A stretch of DNA of 64,000 nt. Source: Candidatus Gottesmanbacteria bacterium (GTDB lineage: Bacteria; Patescibacteriota; Microgenomatia; JACOXO01). Where the stretch lies: positions 2,294 through 66,293 of the forward strand of contig JACOXO010000014.1 of the NCBI GenBank assembly GCA_016182365.1. Reading direction: 5' to 3'. This document shows, piece by piece, positions 869 to 42,187 of this stretch. The notes under the pieces were generated by a model. The model worked only from the letters and a program-made list of their open reading frames with translations. It ran no database searches and was not told the DNA's origin. A program made the translations under genes and the position numbers. Numbering within the stretch: position 1 is the first letter of the stretch; each line of letters opens with the position of its first letter.

Positions 869-885
869 CCCGACGTAACGTCGGG
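869..885. repeat. 17-bp perfect palindrome CCCGACG-TAA-CGTCGGG in the ftsA-ftsZ spacer; member of the CCCGAC/GTCGGG hairpin family
   Basis: Read directly: 7-bp GC-rich stem, 3-nt loop, in an otherwise AT-rich spacer; the same arms recur at 8131-8197, 8480-8518, 25954-25981 and 42130-42171. Confidence 0.6.
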
Positions 886-7524: not shown

Positions 7525-8094
7525 TTAATTATTAAACTCAATGGGTTTTTGTATTAAACCAAAATGATTCACAGGCCAGTATCTAAAGAATACTCTTCCA
7601 ATAATATCATTCTTAGGAACCATTCCCCATTGTCTTGAATCTGCGCTATGACTTCTATTGTCACCAAGAACGAAGTATTCGTCTTGACCTACAGTAATTT
7701 GTTCACCTTCCTTAATATATTGACCTGGAAGCAATATTGTGTCTGTTTGTATGTATTCATCAGGTAATGGTTGGCCGTTTACCAGAACTTTTCCATCGGA
7801 GATTGTTATTGTATCTCCGGGAAGACCAATTATTCTTTTTATATAATCAAAATCAGGATTCATCGGCGCTTTAAATACCACAACATCACCACGCTTCGGT
7901 GCATTTAATCTATAAGAAATTTTATCTGTTAATATGTATTGTCCGTCATGGAAAGTAGGATCCATAGACGCTCCTTTTATCTCATGAGGTTGTACAAGAA
8001 AGAGATATATAACCACAAAAATTGACAACGCAACCACTACTGATTCAATCAGATCAAAAAATATAGAAATAGCACGACGAAATATGTCTTGCAT
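7525..8094 (-). CDS. lepB: Signal peptidase I
   Basis: S26 family motifs (GASMDPTF with catalytic Ser, GDNRSHSADSRQWG box), N-terminal TM. Start placed at the internal Met (MQDIFRR...) because the longer ORF to 8166 would translate through the intergenic GC palindromes; a TTGACA-N17-TACACT promoter lies immediately upstream of 8094 on the minus strand. Confidence 0.8.
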   Translation of the reverse strand: MQDIFRRAISIFFDLIESVVVALSIFVVIYLFLVQPHEIKGASMDPTFHDGQYILTDKISYRLNAPKRGDVVVFKAPMNPDFDYIKRIIGLPGDTITISDGKVLVNGQPLPDEYIQTDTILLPGQYIKEGEQITVGQDEYFVLGDNRSHSADSRQWGMVPKNDIIGRVFFRYWPVNHFGLIQKPIEFNN

Positions 8095-8130
8095 GGATAA
8101 CAGTGTAGGCAATTTGCTATAATCTGTCAA

Positions 8131-8197
8131 TGCCGACGCCACGACAAAAGCGTCGGGGGTCGGCATCCCGACTTAAGTCTAAGACTTAACGTCGGGA
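8131..8197. repeat. Cluster of nested/tandem GC-rich palindromes (TGCCGAC...GTCGGCA enclosing CCGACGC...GCGTCGG; then TCCCGAC-TTAAGTC-TAA-GACTTAA-C-GTCGGGA)
   Basis: Inverted repeats read directly; CCCGAC/GTCGGG arm family; lies between lepB and the GIY-YIG pseudogene. Confidence 0.6.
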
Positions 8198-8216
8198 TCC
8201 CTATATAATTGGGTAG

Positions 8217-8479
8217 ATGGCTTTTGTTTATATTTTAAAAAGTTTTAAAAAAGAAAAGTATTATATTGGTACTACTGAAAATTATGAAAGACGCGTTAGG
8301 GAACATAATAGTGGTAGAGTGAGATCAACTAAATATATCAGACCTCTTAATTTAGTTCTTGTCAGCATTATAATAGTTTAAGTAAAGCTAGAAAAATAGA
8401 ATATAGATTAAAAGCATTAAAGAGAAGAGATTATTTAGAAAAGATTGTTAGAGACGGTAAAATAAAGATGACCGTTTAG
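8217..8479 (+). pseudogene. GIY-YIG nuclease-domain gene, disrupted by a frameshift/small deletion
   Basis: Frame 1 from 8217 encodes MAFVYILKSFKKEKYYIGTTENYERRVREHNSGRVRSTKYIRPLNLVLV, then stops at 8379-8381. The C-terminal half (KARKIEYRLKALKRRDYLEKIVRDGKI) continues in the +2 frame to TAG at 8477-8479. Compare the intact paralog at 25669-25941. Confidence 0.6.
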
Positions 8480-8518
8480 TCCCGACGCAAGGTCGGGATG
8501 CCAACTATAACGTCGGCA
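8480..8518. repeat. Two adjacent hairpins (TCCCGAC-GCAAG-GTCGGGA; TGCCAAC-TATAAC-GTCGGCA) immediately after the GIY-YIG pseudogene stop
   Basis: Same arm family as 8131-8197; begins at the base after the stop codon. Confidence 0.55.
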
Positions 8519-8560
8519 CTCAACGGCAGAGTGCTTCGTTCACACCTGCCCGCCGCAGAT

Positions 8561-8632
8561 GGATCCGTAGCTCAGCGGTAGAGCGTTCGGTTCACATCCG
8601 AAAGGTCAGAGGTTCGATACCTCTCGGATCCA
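8561..8632 (+). tRNA. tRNA-Val (anticodon CAC), CCA not encoded
   Basis: Manual cloverleaf: acceptor GGATCCG/CGGATCC, D-arm GCTC-AGCGGTA-GAGC, anticodon arm TTCGG-TTCACAT-CCGAA, T-arm AGAGG-TTCGATA-CCTCT, discriminator A. Confidence 0.85.
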
Positions 8633-8696
8633 CAGCTTTGGCAAGCGGGTCGAAGAGGTTGGTGGTTCGACGCTTTAGGTAGGACTCCAATGGTTA

Positions 8697-9332
8697 CTAA
8701 AACTGGGTAGATTCTCCAGCTTCTAGAGGAATAAACTTAGATCCAAAATCCCCTAGCACTTTTTCCGGAAGAAAATGAACTGGTCCTAGAAACTTCAACA
8801 TACCATCATGTACCGGAAAACACTTTTTAGGTTTTATTCTCTTGGAATAATCAATTGCTTGACCTAAAGTTAACCATGGTCCAGCAACAGGTAGAGCAAG
8901 AATTTCTACCTTTTTTCCTGGATCTGTCAAAGCATCACCTGGGTAAAAGAGTTTGTTTGCAATAAAATATCCTGTATTTTCAACTCTGGGTACAGTGGAG
9001 TATATATCTGCGTGTAACTTTCCAAATCCTTCGATGAGAACATTCTTGAATTTTTTCTTTTTGTTATGGCCAAGAAGATCATATTTGATATTTTTCTGTA
9101 ATAAGATTTTACCAACTGCATTGTTTGTAATAATTGTTGAGCGCGGATTTTTTACAAGAACTTTTTTAAGCGATTCAATATGTAGATGATCAAGATGTTC
9201 GTGAGTAATAGCTATAACATCAATTTTTTGAATCTGGTTTTGTTTGTCAGTATAAGCACCTGGATCTGTTAAAATACGGAGACCATCAACATCTATTACC
9301 AAACAGCAGTGTCCGATTTTATGAACTTTCAT
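8697..9332 (-). CDS. MBL-fold metallo-hydrolase
   Basis: HxHxDH motif (ITHEHLDHLH) and beta-lactamase-fold layout; 211 aa. Confidence 0.75.
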   Translation of the reverse strand: MKVHKIGHCCLVIDVDGLRILTDPGAYTDKQNQIQKIDVIAITHEHLDHLHIESLKKVLVKNPRSTIITNNAVGKILLQKNIKYDLLGHNKKKKFKNVLIEGFGKLHADIYSTVPRVENTGYFIANKLFYPGDALTDPGKKVEILALPVAGPWLTLGQAIDYSKRIKPKKCFPVHDGMLKFLGPVHFLPEKVLGDFGSKFIPLEAGESTQF

Positions 9333-13682: not shown

Positions 13683-14136
13683 AAATAAGATTAAAGATTT
13701 AATCATAAACCCTCTTACAACTAGAGTAGACGATCGGGGGTATTTGATAGAAATAATTCGGGCGACCGACCCTTTTCTTAAAAAATTTGGTCAGGTTTAT
13801 GTTGTTGGAAGTACTTCAAAAGGTACTATCCGTGCTTTCCATAAACATAAAAAATTATGGGATTATTTTTATATTACTCAAGGCAGCGCAAAATACGCTT
13901 TTTATGATGACAGAAAAAATAGTAAGACTTACAAAAAAATGGAAACTTTTATTTTAACGCAAAGAAACCCGTCTTTAATTATAGTACCACCTGGAGTTTA
14001 TCATGGTTGGATGGCTCTTGAAGACAATACAATATTGATTTCAACTGCTTCAGAAGTATACAACCGAGAAAAACCTGATGAGGTACGCGTACCATATAAT
14101 TCTTTTGGGTACGACTGGAGTATTAAATTCAAATAG
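13669..14136 (+). CDS. Cupin-fold sugar-nucleotide epimerase/isomerase (RmlC / WxcM / FdtA-like)
   Basis: 155 aa; double-stranded beta-helix type motifs (FHKHKK...PPGVYHGW) typical of dTDP-sugar 3,5-epimerase / 3,4-ketoisomerase families; sits in the sugar cluster. Confidence 0.5.
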   Translation: MDIYKNKIKDLIINPLTTRVDDRGYLIEIIRATDPFLKKFGQVYVVGSTSKGTIRAFHKHKKLWDYFYITQGSAKYAFYDDRKNSKTYKKMETFILTQRNPSLIIVPPGVYHGWMALEDNTILISTASEVYNREKPDEVRVPYNSFGYDWSIKFK

Positions 14137-14138
14137 TC

Positions 14139-14188
14139 CACCTCGGAGGAGTCCCCGCCCGAGGCGGGGCCACCGTCCGAGGTGTTTT
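14139..14188 (+). terminator. Long nested GC-rich hairpin followed by TTTTG, between the cupin gene and the SDR epimerase
   Basis: Outer 9-bp stem CACCTCGGA/TCCGAGGTG enclosing inner CCCCGCC-CGA-GGCGGGG; U-run after it; read directly. Confidence 0.5.
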
Positions 14189-14198
14189 GAAAATTCAG

Positions 14199-24230: not shown

Positions 24231-24327
24231 AATGTTTTTTTATTATATACCTTTGAGCCTAAGGTCCCGCAGTATGCGGGACAACCTACGCTTTACGAAA
24301 GCGCCGCCCCGCCTGCCAAAGCCTTTG

Positions 24328-24399
24328 AGCCAACGGTGAGAGTCGAACTCACGACCTGCTGTTTACGAAACAGCTGCTCTACCACTAAGCTACGTTGGC
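24328..24399 (-). tRNA. tRNA-Thr (anticodon CGT), CCA not encoded
   Basis: Reverse complement folds: acceptor GCCAACG/CGTTGGC, D-arm GCTT-AGTGGTA-GAGC, anticodon arm GCTGT-TTCGTAA-ACAGC, T-arm GTGAG-TTCGACT-CTCAC, discriminator T. Confidence 0.85.
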
Positions 24400-24432
24400 A
24401 AATGGCGGGCAGGTCTACCAACTGAGCTAAGA
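24400..24432 (-). other. tRNA 5'-fragment-like sequence (GCCGTCTTAGCTCAGTTGGTAGA...) abutting tRNA-Thr
   Basis: Reverse complement reads like a canonical tRNA acceptor plus D-arm but then diverges and cannot complete a cloverleaf; possible remnant. Confidence 0.3.
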
Positions 24433-24463
24433 CGGCTTAAATCTAGGGATTTTTTTACCATTT

Positions 24464-24871
24464 TTAACTTTCATATTCCCAAGGAAATTTTACCACTTCA
24501 TTGATTTTTCTTAAATAATAGTCAGGTTTTATTTCAGATTTATTGGTAATATATAGACAAGCTGTTTTTACTATTGCGCCTTCATTTTCTAGGTATTGTT
24601 TTGCAGTAATTAAACTTCTACCAGTTTCTAGTATATCCTCAACAAGCAATACTTTTTTGTTATTGATATCTTCATTAATTATTGACGTAATTCTTCTATT
24701 ATTGCCAATTTTTTTCACAGTCAAACAATACATATCACCAACTTTAAGTAAACTGGATAAAATCCGCGCAGGTACAATACCACCTCTAACTATTCCTACA
24801 AGAATATCAGGCGAATAGTCAATCTTCTTGCTTAAATCTATAATTTCCTTCTGAAACCCCACCCAATTCAT
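24464..24871 (-). CDS. Type I phosphoribosyltransferase-domain protein (purine PRTase-like)
   Basis: PRPP-binding motif VLLVEDILETGRSL; 135 aa. Confidence 0.7.
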   Translation of the reverse strand: MNWVGFQKEIIDLSKKIDYSPDILVGIVRGGIVPARILSSLLKVGDMYCLTVKKIGNNRRITSIINEDINNKKVLLVEDILETGRSLITAKQYLENEGAIVKTACLYITNKSEIKPDYYLRKINEVVKFPWEYES

Positions 24872-25656
24872 AATTTCTGTTTCTTAAATATAACTAGATG
24901 CCACAAAGTAACATTTTCCATTTTTTTAAATCTTGGATACTGTTCCATCCACTCTATAGTTGGAATCATAGATTTATTTTCAACCAATTTTAAATCATAT
25001 TTTTCTCCAGCCGTTTGATAAATTGATACTTTTCTAACCAAATCTGCCAGTGTTCCGAAATCCGGCCTTGTTACCATGCAGGCAAATTCTTTTGAAGATA
25101 TTTTTTCAAATTTAATATTGTAACCATGGCGTTTACGATTAAAATAATCATAGTCGGGAATTATTGTTTGAAGTTTTCCGGTATTTTTTAAAAGCGATGA
25201 CAGTTTTTTAAATGCAAAGTCAATATTCAATACATGGTTTAAGGACATTATCGCGGTTATATAATCAAATTTCTTTTTTGAAACAAAGGATTCCAACATC
25301 GTCTTTTCCATTTTGATTTTTGGGAAATATTTTTTTGCTATTTCAATATTTCTTTTTGCCGGCTCTAAACCAATTGCTGATTTTACACCTAATTTATAAG
25401 CTTCATTTAACATCCACCCAGTTCCGGCACCAACATCTAGAAGATCTTTATTTTTCCATTCAGATGTGTATGGCAATAAATATTCCCAAAATACTCTAGT
25501 TAGAGGGGAATCTAATCCTACGCCATGGTAAGGCCAGCCTGTATCCGGTAAATCATACTGGTGAGGATTAATAGCTCTATTTAATACATTGCCCATATAG
25601 TTAGTGAGCGGGCGATGGGAATTGGACCCACTGTCTTCTCCTTGGGAAGGAGACAT
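24868..25656 (-). CDS. Class I SAM-dependent methyltransferase
   Basis: Motif I LLDVGAGTGWM; 262 aa; substrate unknown. Confidence 0.7.
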   Translation of the reverse strand: MSPSQGEDSGSNSHRPLTNYMGNVLNRAINPHQYDLPDTGWPYHGVGLDSPLTRVFWEYLLPYTSEWKNKDLLDVGAGTGWMLNEAYKLGVKSAIGLEPAKRNIEIAKKYFPKIKMEKTMLESFVSKKKFDYITAIMSLNHVLNIDFAFKKLSSLLKNTGKLQTIIPDYDYFNRKRHGYNIKFEKISSKEFACMVTRPDFGTLADLVRKVSIYQTAGEKYDLKLVENKSMIPTIEWMEQYPRFKKMENVTLWHLVIFKKQKL

Positions 25657-25668
25657 TTTACCGGTAAA

Positions 25669-25941
25669 CTACGCCCGCTTAGTTAAATAATTTAATAATC
25701 TTCGTTTAATATAACCTCTTCCAAATCCAGTTTTCAATTGTTTCTCTCTTACCAGTGCGTCCTTTTTATTAAGACAAGCTTCATAATAAACTAGCTTTAT
25801 TTTATCAAAACTTTTTGTAGTTTCGTTACTCTTTGTTAAATGTCCATCAACTCTATTCTTAAGGTTTTCAGATGAACCAATATAAAATTTATTTCTACCT
25901 CGTTTAGTATCAATACATTGAAGTACGTATGTATAAAACAT
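25669..25941 (-). CDS. Stand-alone GIY-YIG nuclease-domain protein (90 aa)
   Basis: YVL...FYIGSSENLKNRVDGH...KLVYYE...REKQLK motifs of the GIY-YIG fold; intact paralog of the pseudogene at 8217-8479. Confidence 0.8.
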   Translation of the reverse strand: MFYTYVLQCIDTKRGRNKFYIGSSENLKNRVDGHLTKSNETTKSFDKIKLVYYEACLNKKDALVREKQLKTGFGRGYIKRRLLNYLTKRA

Positions 25942-25953
25942 ATTTTATCCTTG

Positions 25954-26009
25954 CCCGACCAAAGCTTCGCATTGTGTCGGGTCCGCCAAATTGCGTTGCT
26001 TTTGGCGGA
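25954..26009. repeat. Two GC-rich hairpins (CCCGAC-N16-GTCGGG; TCCGCCAAA-N10-TTTGGCGGA) in the 5' leader of the GIY-YIG gene
   Basis: Inverted repeats read directly; first shares the CCCGAC/GTCGGG arms of the repeat family. Confidence 0.5.
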
Positions 26010-26111
26010 GGAAGGAAGCATTCTACCGTTGAATTACCACCGCTTCTGGGCTAATTTTATCAGAAATACATAAATTTTGTATGTATGTTATGATCAAAAT
26101 ATAATCTAACT

Positions 26112-42129: not shown

Positions 42130-42171
42130 TCCCGACGTAAAAGTCGGGATCCCGACACAAAGTCGTCGGGA
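42130..42171. repeat. Two tandem hairpins TCCCGAC-N6-GTCGGGA and TCCCGAC-N8-GTCGGGA in the atp operon leader
   Basis: Perfect 7-bp arms, same family as 869-885, 8166-8197 and 8480-8498; followed by an A8 run. Confidence 0.6.
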
Positions 42172-42187
42172 TAAAAAAAATGAATCG

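What the first reader, a model, noticed from the sequence alone, without database searches (positions are those of the whole stretch)
8131..8518. Degraded GIY-YIG nuclease gene exactly bracketed by GC-rich hairpin repeats: a mini-cassette next to tRNA-Val
The roughly 260-bp GIY-YIG pseudogene (8217-8479) is bracketed on both sides by members of one palindrome family. It begins 19 nt after a perfect 14/15-bp hairpin (8166-8197) and its stop codon is followed at the next base by another hairpin pair (8480-8518). The whole unit sits between lepB and tRNA-Val. The intact GIY-YIG paralog (25669-25941) also has a CCCGAC/GTCGGG hairpin directly upstream of its RBS. Hairpin-nuclease-hairpin architecture is how IS200/IS605 and REP/RAYT elements are organised, but no GIY-YIG-based equivalent is established. 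This may be a small selfish element, or a nuclease that recognises these hairpins.
Basis: partly seen in the sequence, partly recalled or inferred. Interest (0 to 1): 0.6.

Follow-up and report, generated by a model that had tools for sequence, protein, structure and literature searches.

The report
Hairpin-guided GIY-YIG cassette in tRNA genes
This is a decayed copy of a small nuclease gene that travels with its own pair of DNA hairpins and lodges at the front of a tRNA gene; the same arrangement recurs in the 80 related genomes fetched (mostly ultra-small CPR bacteria), and I found no description of its link to tRNA genes.

Summary
Window 8217-8479 is a GIY-YIG gene with one net frameshift. 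GC-rich CCGAC/GTCGG hairpin pairs sit on both sides of it, between lepB and tRNA-Val.

It is one copy of a widespread element. In 82 related loci, mostly Patescibacteria:
- 81 carry the same hairpins at the element.
- 75 of 83 loci have a same-strand tRNA just downstream of the ~88-aa ORF.
- In 34 loci the stop codon is the TAG at tRNA positions 8-10.
- 36 of 75 keep an exact 10-nt copy of the tRNA 5' end upstream, interrupted by the hairpin pair.

The hairpins form a fixed, mirror-symmetric double hairpin (CCGAC+G...GTCGG, 4 nt, CCGAC...C+GTCGG). A relative (L084) has the empty site, with promoter and tRNA-Val directly adjacent. A second GIY-YIG subfamily (window 25669-25941) has its own hairpin pair and sits at tRNA-Gly(CCC) in all sampled loci.

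The closest known system is Ssn/NTS (Chenal 2025): a single-domain GIY-YIG ssDNA nuclease flanked by its cognate hairpin repeats. So a GIY-YIG analogue of REP/RAYT does exist. The tRNA-embedded architecture and this hairpin class are not in the literature I could search.

Verdict: a selfish, tRNA-resident nuclease-hairpin cassette, and a new variant of a known kind. The mechanism is inferred, not shown.

The parts
8115..8123 (+). Extended -10 promoter-like motif (TGcTATAAT) of the tRNA-Val transcription unit. It is conserved in the empty-site relative.
   Evidence: Sequence read. The same TTTGCTATAATCTGTCAAT is found in L084 (empty site), and TTTGTTATAATCTGTCAAT in L001. Promoter function is inferred.
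8130..8198 (+). Upstream double hairpin element. H1 is 8130-8166 (CCGAC+G form, with a nested degenerate hairpin in its loop). H2 is 8165-8198 (C+GTCGG form).
   Evidence: DNA fold -25.4 kcal/mol, z -7.5. Same organisation as 52 pairs in related loci.
8217..8479 (+). GIY-YIG nuclease pseudogene (family 1) with one net -1 frameshift between about 8346 and 8362. The catalytic Tyr, Tyr, Arg, His and Glu codons are still present.
   Evidence: It is 63% identical to the intact 93-aa orthologue P0001 at the same locus in L001.
8470..8479 (+). Positions 1-10 of a decayed tRNA-Val copy (GACCGTTTAG). Its TAG is the stop codon of the GIY-YIG frame.
   Evidence: In L001 the ORF ends in the same way inside the functional tRNA-Val. 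Alignment.
8480..8518 (+). Second double hairpin element (H1 8480-8498, H2 8499-8518, the latter degenerate). It is inserted between positions 10 and 11 of the decayed tRNA-Val.
   Evidence: The same insertion position (..TAG | pair | CTCA..) is seen in many related loci.
8519..8544 (+). Decayed tRNA-Val, positions 11-37: D arm, 5' strand of the anticodon stem, and loop TTCACA.
   Evidence: Alignment of the spliced relic to the functional tRNA-Val and to the L001 tRNA-Val.
8545..8560 (+). Left flank (CCTGCCCGCC GCAGAT) of the functional tRNA-Val that is nested in the anticodon loop of the relic.
   Evidence: The same 10-mer lies directly upstream of the nested tRNA-Thr at 24404-24413(-).
8561..8633 (+). 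Functional tRNA-Val(CAC).
   Evidence: ARAGORN. Rfam tRNA, 70.3 bits.
8634..8650 (+). Right flank (AGCTTTGGCAAGCGGGT) of the nested tRNA-Val. It is partly complementary to the left flank.
   Evidence: The homologous flank at the tRNA-Thr locus is CAAAGGCTTTGGCAGGCGGG.
8651..8697 (+). Decayed tRNA-Val 3' part. The anticodon-stem 3' strand CGAAG, the variable region and the start of the T arm are recognisable. The rest has degenerated, and the acceptor 3' strand is AATGGTT.
   Evidence: Alignment and negative ARAGORN call on the spliced relic. The fold pairs GACCGTT with AATGGTT.
25606..25678 (-). tRNA-Gly(CCC). Its first 10 nt are the last codons and the TAG stop of the family-2 GIY-YIG gene.
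   Evidence: The same 10-nt overlap is seen in every family-2 locus that reaches the tRNA (11 of 14 fetched).
25669..25941 (-). Intact GIY-YIG gene, family 2 (90 aa).
   Evidence: Pfam GIY-YIG E 3.2e-13. 1088 homologues, the best 120 listed being 60-77% identical.
25949..26043 (-). Family-2 upstream module, read on the minus strand: tRNA-Gly 5' relic positions 1-35 (26043-26010), hairpin TCCGCC..GGCGGA (26009-25982), hairpin CCCGAC..GTCGGG (25981-25954), then CAAGG, which is tRNA positions 36-40 (25953-25949).
   Evidence: DNA fold z -4.9. The same module is seen in L093-L106.
42131..42172 (+). Solo canonical double hairpin element with no nuclease gene or tRNA. It lies between dnaE and the ATP synthase operon.
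   Evidence: DNA fold z -5.4.
869..885 (+). Solo single hairpin of the family (CCCGACG TAA CGTCGGG) between ftsA and ftsZ.
   Evidence: DNA fold z -4.0.

Best explanation
The finding is a decaying copy of a selfish cassette that lives inside tRNA transcription units. The cassette has three linked parts:
1. A mirror-symmetric double hairpin element. This is two abutting 7-bp-stem hairpins with an invariant CCGAC/GTCGG core. The first has a G after its 5' arm and the second a C before its 3' arm, so the same asymmetric hairpin is presented once on each DNA strand.
2. A minimal, single-domain GIY-YIG nuclease of about 88 aa.
3. A complete tRNA gene fused to the 3' end of the ORF.

Shown:
- The three parts co-occur almost without exception in the 82 related loci examined, drawn from very distant genomes.
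- The hairpin pair sits inside a partial copy of the same tRNA.
- The cassette is present or absent between relatives and has moved among at least 22 tRNA types.

Inferred mechanism:
- The unit is transcribed from the tRNA promoter.
- The nuclease works like the Ssn enzymes. It binds its cognate hairpin when the DNA is single-stranded (replication, heavy tRNA transcription, cruciform extrusion) and nicks a few nucleotides 5' of it.
- Because the pair presents one site per strand, the two nicks bracket the pair and make a break in the tRNA copy.
- Recombinational repair then copies or moves the hairpin pair, with or without the ORF and tRNA. It moves into other tRNA genes and into the loops of other hairpins.
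- Insertion destroys an essential tRNA gene. So only cassettes that bring or duplicate an intact tRNA survive, and this leaves 5' and sometimes 3' tRNA relics.

In the window:
- The nuclease has lost its frame.
- The tRNA-Val copy fused to the ORF was itself hit by a second hairpin pair at position 10/11.
- A further nested tRNA-Val now supplies the function.
For: - Association with tRNA: 75 of 83 loci have a same-strand tRNA just downstream. 41 overlap the ORF, 34 of them by exactly 10 nt so that the stop is the TAG at tRNA positions 8-10, and 21 more have a gap of 0-30 nt. 56 of 83 stops are TAG.
- Association with hairpins: 172 of 266 hairpins lie in the 200 nt before the ORF and 80 lie just after it. 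71 of 82 loci have hairpins upstream and 81 of 82 have them in the element.
- Fixed geometry: in 52 pairs, H1 has G after CCGAC in 52 of 52, H2 has C before GTCGG in 51 of 52, and the spacing is 4 nt in 49 of 52. There are 27 nested hairpins.
- Both structure and sequence matter: the 5-bp core is the same in all copies, while the two outer stem pairs covary (88% and 80% Watson-Crick, three pair types).
- tRNA relics: 36 of 75 loci have an exact copy of tRNA positions 1-10 lying 50-135 nt before the ATG, against 2 of 1500 in controls. 3' relics with a second hairpin pair occur in 10-17 of 60 loci.
- In L009 the outer relic halves pair with each other and differ from the inner tRNA.
- Mobility: L084 has the empty site, L001 is filled and intact, and the window is filled and degraded. 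Nucleases 70-76% identical sit at different isoacceptors.
- Co-variation of nuclease and hairpin type: family 2 has its own pair, at position 35/36 of tRNA-Gly.
- Protein: single GIY-YIG domain with conserved Tyr, Tyr, Arg, His and Glu. It is related to UPF0213, SLX1 and SsnA.
- Precedent: SsnA binds a hairpin repeat as ssDNA only, needs both its sequence and its structure, tolerates insertions in the loop, and cuts 5' of it (PMC11893778).
Against: - There is no biochemical evidence. Recognition of the hairpins by this nuclease rests on association and on analogy with Ssn.
- The family is somewhat closer to UPF0213 (hhalign E 1e-17) than to gonococcal SsnA (E 5e-13). The published SRM motif does not match these hairpins.
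- Only about a quarter of loci have hairpins on both sides, so a transposon-like 'two ends' model does not fit most copies.
- Family 2, as sampled, is fixed at one tRNA and often syntenic with a LysM gene. Its best 120 listed homologues are 60-77% identical. This looks more like long vertical residence, or domestication, than active spread.
- The invariance of the core partly reflects my search pattern.
- How the element enters an intact tRNA gene that has no hairpin is unexplained.
Confidence: 0.6

Rival explanations
1. This is a classical free-standing homing endonuclease. The nuclease recognises and cuts intact tRNA-gene duplex DNA (the conserved D-arm region), as T4 SegB does in the phage tRNA cluster. 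It spreads by break repair together with flanking tRNA sequence. The hairpin pair is not the nuclease's site. It protects the disrupted copy from re-cleavage, or it is an independent passenger repeat.
For: - The insertion points of the hairpin pair cluster in the most conserved tRNA segment (TAG|CTCA, CAG|TTGG). This would explain the use of at least 22 tRNA types.
- Partial target duplication with an intact downstream copy is typical of free-standing homing genes.
- Presence or absence between relatives.
- SegB precedent (PMC2330249).
Against: - The protein is only the ~88-aa catalytic domain with no DNA-binding domain. Characterised GIY-YIG homing enzymes need such a domain (PMC11893778).
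- The intact downstream tRNA would remain a target.
- Hairpin type changes with nuclease subfamily. The hairpins have a conserved sequence core and a rigid two-fold geometry. Neither is expected of a mere passenger.
Confidence: 0.17
2. This is a domesticated host function. The nuclease and its hairpins are kept by the cell, for example to limit or steer recombination and DNA uptake at tRNA loci, as SsnA/NTS modulates transformation in Neisseria. Alternatively they help maintain tRNA gene copies. They are inherited mostly vertically.
For: - Family 2 sits at tRNA-Gly(CCC) in every sampled locus that reaches the tRNA, often with the same LysM and tRNA-Asp neighbours. Its best 120 listed homologues are 60-77% identical.
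- Catalytic residues are conserved across hundreds of clusters.
- SsnA has a host-level effect on transformation (PMC11893778).
Against: - The window copy is frameshifted while the cell keeps a working tRNA-Val.
- The cassette is absent from the same site in a relative.
- Close nucleases sit at different tRNAs.
- The cassette leaves destroyed tRNA copies behind, which is a cost rather than a service.
Confidence: 0.13
3. The hairpins act in RNA. They would be processing, stability or translation-control signals in the precursor that carries both the nuclease mRNA and the tRNA. Their link to the nuclease would reflect expression needs, not DNA recognition.
For: - The pair lies in the 5' leader of the ORF, 7-30 nt before the ATG in most loci, in a transcript that must also be cut by RNase P.
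- The outer stem pairs covary.
Against: - The 5-bp core sequence is the same in all copies and does not covary.
- The pair is two-fold symmetric on the two DNA strands. That has meaning for DNA but not for a single RNA strand.
- The same pairs occur after tRNAs, nested in each other, and solo between unrelated genes.
- No Rfam family matches.
- SsnA does not bind RNA.
Confidence: 0.07
4. This is chance or an artefact. The hairpins are generic GC-rich terminator-like palindromes of an AT-rich genome that happen to flank a broken gene.
For: Hairpins of the family also occur next to unrelated genes in the window.
Against: - 7 matches against 0.07 expected in the window.
- No T-runs after most of the hairpins.
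- The same arrangement is found in 80 independent genomes.
Confidence: 0.01

Closest known systems
Ssn nucleases with NTS/SRM hairpin repeats (Chenal et al. 2025, Nat Commun 16:2388, PMC11893778)
   Same: - Single-domain GIY-YIG protein of about 90 aa, with the same spacing of the catalytic Tyr, Tyr and Glu.
- The gene is flanked by its own GC-rich hairpin repeat, which has an asymmetric extra G after the 5' arm (CCCGC-G..GCGGG against CCGAC-G..GTCGG).
- In N. gonorrhoeae the repeat begins 3 nt after the stop codon, as at window 8480.
- The repeats are also dispersed in the genome.
- Nuclease and repeat co-vary between lineages.
- hhalign of family 1 against gonococcal SsnA: probability 97.9%, E 5e-13 over 83 columns.
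   Different: - The published SRM consensus does not match (2 chance hits in 439 kb).
- The hairpins come as a rigid mirror-symmetric pair.
- The cassette is embedded in tRNA genes, with the ORF stop inside the tRNA, tRNA relics, and a replacement tRNA. The Ssn paper never mentions tRNA or Patescibacteria.
- The protein family is at least as close to UPF0213.
REP/RAYT and IS200/IS605 (own knowledge; also discussed in PMC11893778)
   Same: A small nuclease gene is bracketed by hairpin-forming repeats that it is thought to recognise as single-stranded DNA. The repeats also proliferate as solo and clustered copies.
   Different: The enzyme there is an HUH/Y1 transposase, not a GIY-YIG nuclease. 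Those elements have no tRNA fusion and no two-fold symmetric pair.
Free-standing GIY-YIG homing endonucleases, e.g. T4 SegB in the phage tRNA gene cluster (PMC2330249)
   Same: A GIY-YIG gene sits among tRNA genes, is inherited preferentially with flanking tRNA sequence, and is present or absent between relatives.
   Different: SegB-type enzymes have DNA-binding domains and cut duplex DNA at a long site. They have no cognate hairpins, and the ORF is not fused to a tRNA.
UPF0213 (YhbQ, BH0048, EF2693) and SLX1 structure-specific nucleases
   Same: These are the closest solved structures by sequence (1zg2, E 2.8e-14; SLX1, E 2e-6). They are bare GIY-YIG domains. SLX1 cuts branched DNA.
   Different: No hairpin repeats or tRNA linkage are known for them (own knowledge). 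SLX1 needs SLX4 and has a RING domain.
[quoted passage not shown] 2026, PMC13011429)
   Same: The same phylum, with insertions that interrupt tRNA genes. These include position 35/36, where the family-2 hairpin pair sits.
   Different: There is no ribozyme here (Rfam negative). The inserts are 40-90 nt hairpin pairs. The interrupted tRNA is a relic and an intact copy follows, so nothing needs to be spliced.
Double-hairpin elements and GC clusters of fungal mitochondrial DNA; the mobile GIY-YIG ORF fused to a duplicated atp6 end in Allomyces (own knowledge: Paquin, Laforest and Lang, 1994 and 2000)
   Same: Pairs of GC-rich hairpins spread in AT-rich genomes. A GIY-YIG gene inserts into an essential gene while carrying a replacement for the part it displaces.
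   Different: Those are organellar, with different sequences. No fixed nuclease-hairpin-tRNA unit is described there.

Membership tests
GIY-YIG nuclease superfamily | Match to the GIY-YIG catalytic domain profile | tested here: met
   Pfam PF01541: E 1.9e-12 for the frame-corrected pseudogene and 3.2e-13 for the intact paralogue.
GIY-YIG nuclease superfamily | Conserved catalytic Tyr (GIY), Tyr (YIG), Arg, His/Tyr and Glu | tested here: met
   In 40 family members, Y11, Y22, H36 and E68 are invariant and R32 is conserved in at least 90%. All five are still encoded in the window pseudogene, across the two frames.
Ssn family (cd10448, Chenal 2025) | Single-domain protein of about 90-100 aa with no DNA-binding domain | tested here: met
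   86-93 aa, with only PF01541.
Ssn family (cd10448, Chenal 2025) | Belongs to the SsnA clade rather than to other single-domain GIY-YIG families | tested here: inconclusive
   hhalign against gonococcal SsnA (L136 398..682): probability 97.9%, E 5e-13, 25% identity. Against UPF0213 BH0048: probability 98.9%, E 1e-17, 31% identity. No CDD model was available.
Ssn family (cd10448, Chenal 2025) | Gene flanked by 20-50 nt hairpin-forming repeats (at least one on each side within 500 bp) | tested here: met
   Window: pairs at 8130-8198 and 8480-8518. Related loci: 71 of 82 upstream, and on both sides in 17 of 60 evaluable loci.
Ssn family (cd10448, Chenal 2025) | Repeats match the SRM consensus HGTCWYN(0-2)YYVSBRHN(0-5)WNVSBRGN(0-2)RNCYNB | tested here: not met
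   2 chance-like hits in 439 kb, and none at the hairpins.
Ssn family (cd10448, Chenal 2025) | Cleaves only single-stranded DNA, a few nucleotides 5' of its hairpin | not testable with these tools
   Needs purified protein and oligonucleotides.
IS200/IS605 and REP/RAYT | HUH (Y1) transposase | tested here: not met
   The only ORF is a GIY-YIG domain.
Free-standing homing endonuclease gene | Presence or absence at the same site in relatives | tested here: met
   L084 is empty, with 45 nt between the lepB start and tRNA-Val. L001 and the window are filled; the window has 466 nt there.
Free-standing homing endonuclease gene | Enzyme cuts the empty allele at a long duplex site, using a DNA-binding domain | tested here: not met
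   There is no domain beyond the catalytic core. Cleavage itself could not be tested.
Group I intron in a tRNA gene | Ribozyme core, and a split tRNA that needs splicing | tested here: not met
   Rfam finds only the tRNAs, even at E up to 10. An intact tRNA follows each interrupted copy.
Intrinsic terminator | GC-rich hairpin followed by a T-run at a gene end | tested here: not met
   The hairpins lie inside tRNA relics and in the ORF leader. They are followed by tRNA sequence or by the ATG, not by T-runs.

The most novel reading that the evidence does not exclude
These cassettes may be a previously unrecognised class of mobile element. It would have three features. First, a minimal GIY-YIG nuclease is guided by a two-fold symmetric double hairpin presented on both DNA strands. 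Second, the element inserts specifically into tRNA genes. Third, it carries a replacement tRNA, so the host cannot lose the element without losing the tRNA. Placing the stop codon inside the tRNA (positions 8-10) would tie nuclease translation to tRNA 5' processing: RNase P cleavage would leave a stop-less message. On this reading the element would be a major shaper of tRNA gene content and turnover in Patescibacteria.
Probability: 0.35. Interest if true: 0.85.

Novelty: new variant of a known kind. Interest (0 to 1): 0.72.

Why it matters
- It shows that the hairpin-plus-minimal-GIY-YIG logic found in Neisseria in 2025 has a distinct branch, common in candidate phyla radiation bacteria, that is welded to tRNA genes. 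There are at least 710 protein clusters at E below 1e-10. Almost every examined copy is fused to a tRNA.
- It explains a class of tRNA pseudogenes, split-looking tRNAs and 'GIY-YIG nuclease family protein' annotations in these genomes.
- It warns that tRNA finders will miss or mis-call hairpin-interrupted copies.
- It offers testable candidates for new site-specific single-stranded DNA nucleases with a defined, different recognition hairpin.
- It raises a concrete question about selfish elements that make themselves indispensable by replacing the essential gene they destroy.

Tried and rejected
- **Rfam.** I searched the whole window at gathering thresholds and the two loci at E up to 10. Only tRNAs were found, so no intron, ribozyme or known cis element is present.
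- **Split, permuted or intron-containing tRNA.** I considered this for the outer tRNA-Val. The spliced relic aligns with tRNA-Val, but its T arm and acceptor 3' strand are decayed and ARAGORN does not call it. It is a pseudogene.
- **Group I intron at position 35/36 for the family-2 module.** Rejected. The insert is a hairpin pair of about 57 nt and an intact tRNA-Gly follows.
- **Published SRM consensus.** No match to these hairpins.
- **Word-index protein search with the frame-corrected pseudogene.** Only 3 hits, so I used the exhaustive HMMER search instead.
- **The search for related loci with the 40-sequence alignment.** It failed for lack of a conserved stretch. A 10-sequence alignment worked.
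- **Viral contigs.** Only distant GIY-YIG relatives (38% identity or less), so there is no evidence that phages carry family 1.
- **tblastn of P0004 against plasmids.** One weak hit.
- **One NTS hit on a Sphingomonas plasmid.** No nuclease gene nearby.
- **Comparison of the tRNA-Val sequences of the window, L001, L084 and L085.** Too divergent to say whether the tRNA was imported with the cassette.
- **Not run.** I did not run structure prediction, because sequence matches to solved GIY-YIG structures were already clear.
Full report
**What is in the window**

The window is about 35% G+C. It comes from a Candidatus Gottesmanbacteria contig: the 54-aa ORF at 8217-8381 is identical to an NCBI protein of that organism on a 67,159-nt contig.

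The locus lies between lepB (minus strand, real start about 8094) and tRNA-Val(CAC) at 8561-8633. Reading left to right it contains:
- an extended -10 promoter-like motif, TGcTATAAT, at 8115-8123;
- a hairpin pair at 8130-8198;
- a GIY-YIG reading frame at 8217-8479, broken by one net -1 frameshift between about 8346 and 8362;
- a second hairpin pair at 8480-8518, starting at the base after the stop codon.

The frame-corrected protein matches Pfam GIY-YIG at E 1.9e-12. CCGAC-N-GTCGG hairpins occur 7 times in the window against 0.07 expected. All hairpin blocks fold as single-stranded DNA far better than shuffles, with z-scores of -3.2 to -7.5.

**The tRNA is part of the unit**

A related genome (L001, GCA_964608865.1) has the same gene order: L27, ParB, lepB, hairpins, GIY-YIG, tRNA-Val. 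Its ORF is intact (93 aa, 63% identical). That ORF ends inside the tRNA: its TAG stop is tRNA positions 8-10.

In the window the pseudogene ends in the same way, in GACCGTTTAG. This is the start of a decayed tRNA-Val. Its remaining parts are:
- positions 11-37 at 8519-8544;
- from position 38 onward at 8651-8697.

Spliced together, these pieces align with tRNA-Val through the start of the T loop. The 3' part has degenerated and ARAGORN does not call it.

This relic carries two insertions:
- the hairpin pair 8480-8518, between positions 10 and 11;
- between positions 37 and 38, the functional tRNA-Val with short, partly complementary flanks (CCTGCCCGCC... and ...GGCAAGCGGG).

**Comparative evidence**

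An exhaustive HMMER search with the two closest intact homologues found 7,688 proteins at E below 1e-3 and 710 at E below 1e-10, counting one representative per 50%-identity cluster.

I fetched 80 loci, one per species. Most are Patescibacteria of many classes. A few are labelled Omnitrophota, Planctomycetes or Gammaproteobacteria by their depositors. Together with L001-L003 they show the following.

*The tRNA link:*
- 75 of 83 loci have a same-strand tRNA immediately downstream.
- 41 overlap the ORF, 34 of them by exactly 10 nt.
- 21 more have a gap of 0-30 nt.
- TAG is the stop in 56 of 83.
- At least 22 isoacceptors are used.

*The hairpin link:*
- 172 of 266 CCGAC..GTCGG hairpins in 374 kb lie in the 200 nt before the ORF, and 80 lie just after it.
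- Only about 14 lie anywhere else.
- 71 of 82 loci have them upstream, and 81 of 82 have them somewhere in the element.

*The tRNA relics:*
- The upstream hairpins sit inside a partial copy of the tRNA.
- 36 of 75 loci have an exact copy of tRNA positions 1-10 lying 50-135 nt before the ATG, against 2 of 1,500 in shuffled pairings.
- The hairpin pair follows either directly (..TAG | pair | CTCA..) or after the D-loop start (..GCTCAG | pair | TTGGTAGAG..).
- Rarer positions are 12/13, about 19/20 and 26/27.

**The hairpin pair is a defined element**

In 52 adjacent pairs:
- the first hairpin always has G after CCGAC (52 of 52);
- the second has C before GTCGG (51 of 52);
- the two are spaced by 4 nt in 49 of 52.

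Each stem is therefore 7 bp, and the pair reads the same on both strands. The same asymmetric hairpin is presented once per strand.

The two base pairs outside the 5-bp core covary: they are Watson-Crick in 88% and 80% of copies, as CG, TA or GC. The third position outward is unpaired. Loops range from 5 to 48 nt and often hold further hairpins of the family (27 nested copies).

Both window pairs fit this description. So does a solo pair at 42131-42172, between dnaE and the ATP synthase genes. A single hairpin lies at 869-885, between ftsA and ftsZ.

**Two-sided copies and foreign tRNAs**

In 17 of 60 evaluable loci a second hairpin pair lies within 350 nt after the tRNA. In 10 of these there is a clear 3' tRNA relic.

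In L009 the outer 5' relic (GCGCCTG..) pairs with the outer 3' relic (..CAGGCGC). Both differ from the complete inner tRNA-Ile (GCGCGCG..). The nuclease gene plus its tRNA therefore sits inside a resident tRNA gene and is bounded by hairpin pairs. L036, L041, L049, L071 and L083 are similar. In L035 the tRNA fused to the ORF is itself interrupted at position 10/11 but otherwise perfect, as the window's relic once was.

**Mobility**

The closest relative by LepB (L084, 71% identity) has the same promoter sequence, TTTGCTATAATCTGTCAAT. It is followed after 8 nt by tRNA-Val, with no nuclease gene and no hairpins. The distance from the lepB start to the tRNA is 45 nt there, against 466 nt in the window. 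This is an empty site.

Nucleases that are 70-76% identical sit at different tRNAs, such as Asn/Val, Asn/Phe and Val/Ile. Among pairs at least 65% identical, 35 share a tRNA type and 153 do not. Two copies at different tRNAs come from one assembly (L047 and L080).

**A second family with its own hairpins**

The intact paralogue at 25669-25941(-) is only 31% identical over 51 residues. It has 1,088 word-index homologues, the best 120 listed being 60-77% identical.

I fetched 14 loci for this family. In all 11 that reach the tRNA:
- the ORF ends 10 nt inside tRNA-Gly(CCC);
- upstream there is a tRNA-Gly 5' relic up to position 35;
- then comes a different pair, TCCGCC..GGCGGA plus CCCGnC..GnCGGG;
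- then CAAGG (positions 36-40) and the ATG.

L099 repeats the pair after the tRNA. The window copy has exactly this structure at 25949-26043. The hairpin type thus changes with the nuclease family while the overall plan stays the same.

**What is known**

The protein is a bare GIY-YIG domain. Its closest solved relatives are UPF0213 proteins (1zg2, E 2.8e-14), then SLX1.

Chenal et al. 2025 (PMC11893778) described the Ssn family. SsnA is a 94-aa single-domain GIY-YIG enzyme with these properties:
- it binds a hairpin repeat (NTS, more generally SRM) only as single-stranded DNA;
- it needs both the sequence and the structure of the hairpin;
- it tolerates extensions in the loop;
- it cuts a few nucleotides 5' of the hairpin;
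- its gene is typically flanked by the repeat (NTS-ssnA-NTS).

I recovered a real SsnA orthologue from a gonococcal chromosome that PLSDB lists as a plasmid (L136, 398..682). It is 94 aa with Y6, Y17 and E64. An NTS starts 3 nt after its stop codon, and an inverted one lies about 105 nt upstream.

Comparison of the family-1 profile gives:

| Compared with | Probability | E-value | Identity |
|---|---|---|---|
| Gonococcal SsnA (83 columns) | 97.9% | 5e-13 | 25% |
| UPF0213 BH0048 | 98.9% | 1e-17 | 31% |

The published SRM consensus does not match the CCGAC hairpins. The Ssn paper does not mention tRNA or Patescibacteria.

Five full-text searches found no description of a GIY-YIG gene fused to tRNA genes with hairpin-interrupted tRNA relics. 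The paper on group I introns in Patescibacteria tRNA genes does not cover it.

**Interpretation**

The best reading is a selfish cassette resident in tRNA transcription units: double hairpin, minimal nuclease, tRNA.

Shown:
- the near-obligate three-way linkage;
- the geometry and covariation of the hairpins;
- the tRNA relics;
- the presence/absence polymorphism;
- the movement among tRNA types;
- the co-variation of hairpin type with nuclease family.

Inferred by analogy with Ssn:
- the nuclease recognises the hairpin in single-stranded DNA and nicks 5' of it on each strand, so that a break brackets the pair;
- repair spreads the pair, and sometimes the whole cassette;
- cassettes persist because they supply the tRNA they displace.

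The stop codon inside the tRNA suggests that RNase P processing would remove the stop from the nuclease message. This is a hypothesis only.

Points against, or still open:
- there is no biochemistry;
- most copies have hairpins on one side only;
- family 2 looks vertically stable at one tRNA;
- how a hairpin-free tRNA gene is first invaded is unexplained.

**Verdict**

The element works like Ssn/NTS, but membership of the Ssn family is not established. The tRNA-embedded architecture and the hairpin class appear to be new. I rate it a new variant of a known kind, with fairly high interest.

Noticed in passing
window 8545-8650 and 24257-24440 (minus strand): Functional tRNA-Val and tRNA-Thr(CGT) are each nested inside a decayed tRNA of the same type, at position 37/38 and in the D stem respectively. 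Both have homologous flanks: CCTGCCCGCC plus 4-6 nt on the left, and CA..GCTTTGGCA(A/G)GCGGG on the right. The flanks can pair with each other. The 10-mer occurs only at these two places in the window.
   Followed up: partly
window 25606-26043 (minus strand); loci L093-L106: A second GIY-YIG subfamily has its own double hairpin, inserted at anticodon position 35/36 of a tRNA-Gly relic. In every fetched locus that reaches the tRNA (11 of 14) the ORF ends 10 nt inside tRNA-Gly(CCC). It often has a LysM gene and tRNA-Asp upstream, as in the window.
   Followed up: yes
window 42131-42172 and 869-885: A solo double hairpin lies between dnaE and the ATP synthase operon, and a solo single hairpin lies between ftsA and ftsZ. 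Neither has a nuclease gene or a tRNA nearby, so the repeats also disperse on their own.
   Followed up: partly
window 14130-14195 and 24257-24300; L007 2360-2400; L046: There are other GC-rich palindromes built on CCCGC(C)..G(G)CGGG arms. The one in L007 (CATTCCCGCG...GCGGGAATCC) resembles the Neisseria NTS core. This may be a further hairpin family in these genomes.
   Followed up: no
window 7525-8166 (minus) and 24868-25656 (minus): The mechanical ORFs for lepB and for the methyltransferase-like gene run upstream through the hairpin block and through tRNA-Gly respectively. The real starts are most likely 8094 and an internal Met. Many family-1 homologues in the databases are 20-60 aa too long at the N terminus, probably for the same reason.
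   Followed up: no
L005 about 1490-1560; L035 2755-2900; L024 2760-2900: These are tRNA-like sequences that ARAGORN does not call because a hairpin or hairpin pair interrupts them. In L005 a single hairpin sits where the anticodon arm should be. Otherwise their arms are well preserved. tRNA finders will miss such copies.
   Followed up: partly
L107 2300-2900 (IMG/VR contig): A distant GIY-YIG relative (38% identity) on a contig classed as viral lies next to an opposite-strand tRNA-Ala. It is followed by what looks like a tRNA-Ala 3' relic carrying short CCCGA(T/C) hairpins.
   Followed up: no
L136 (NZ_CP119140.1 1881878-1882941): PLSDB lists two 2.17-Mb Neisseria gonorrhoeae chromosomes as plasmids (NZ_CP119140.1 and NZ_CP119142.1). 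The ssnA gene there carries no annotation in the PLSDB table.
   Followed up: no
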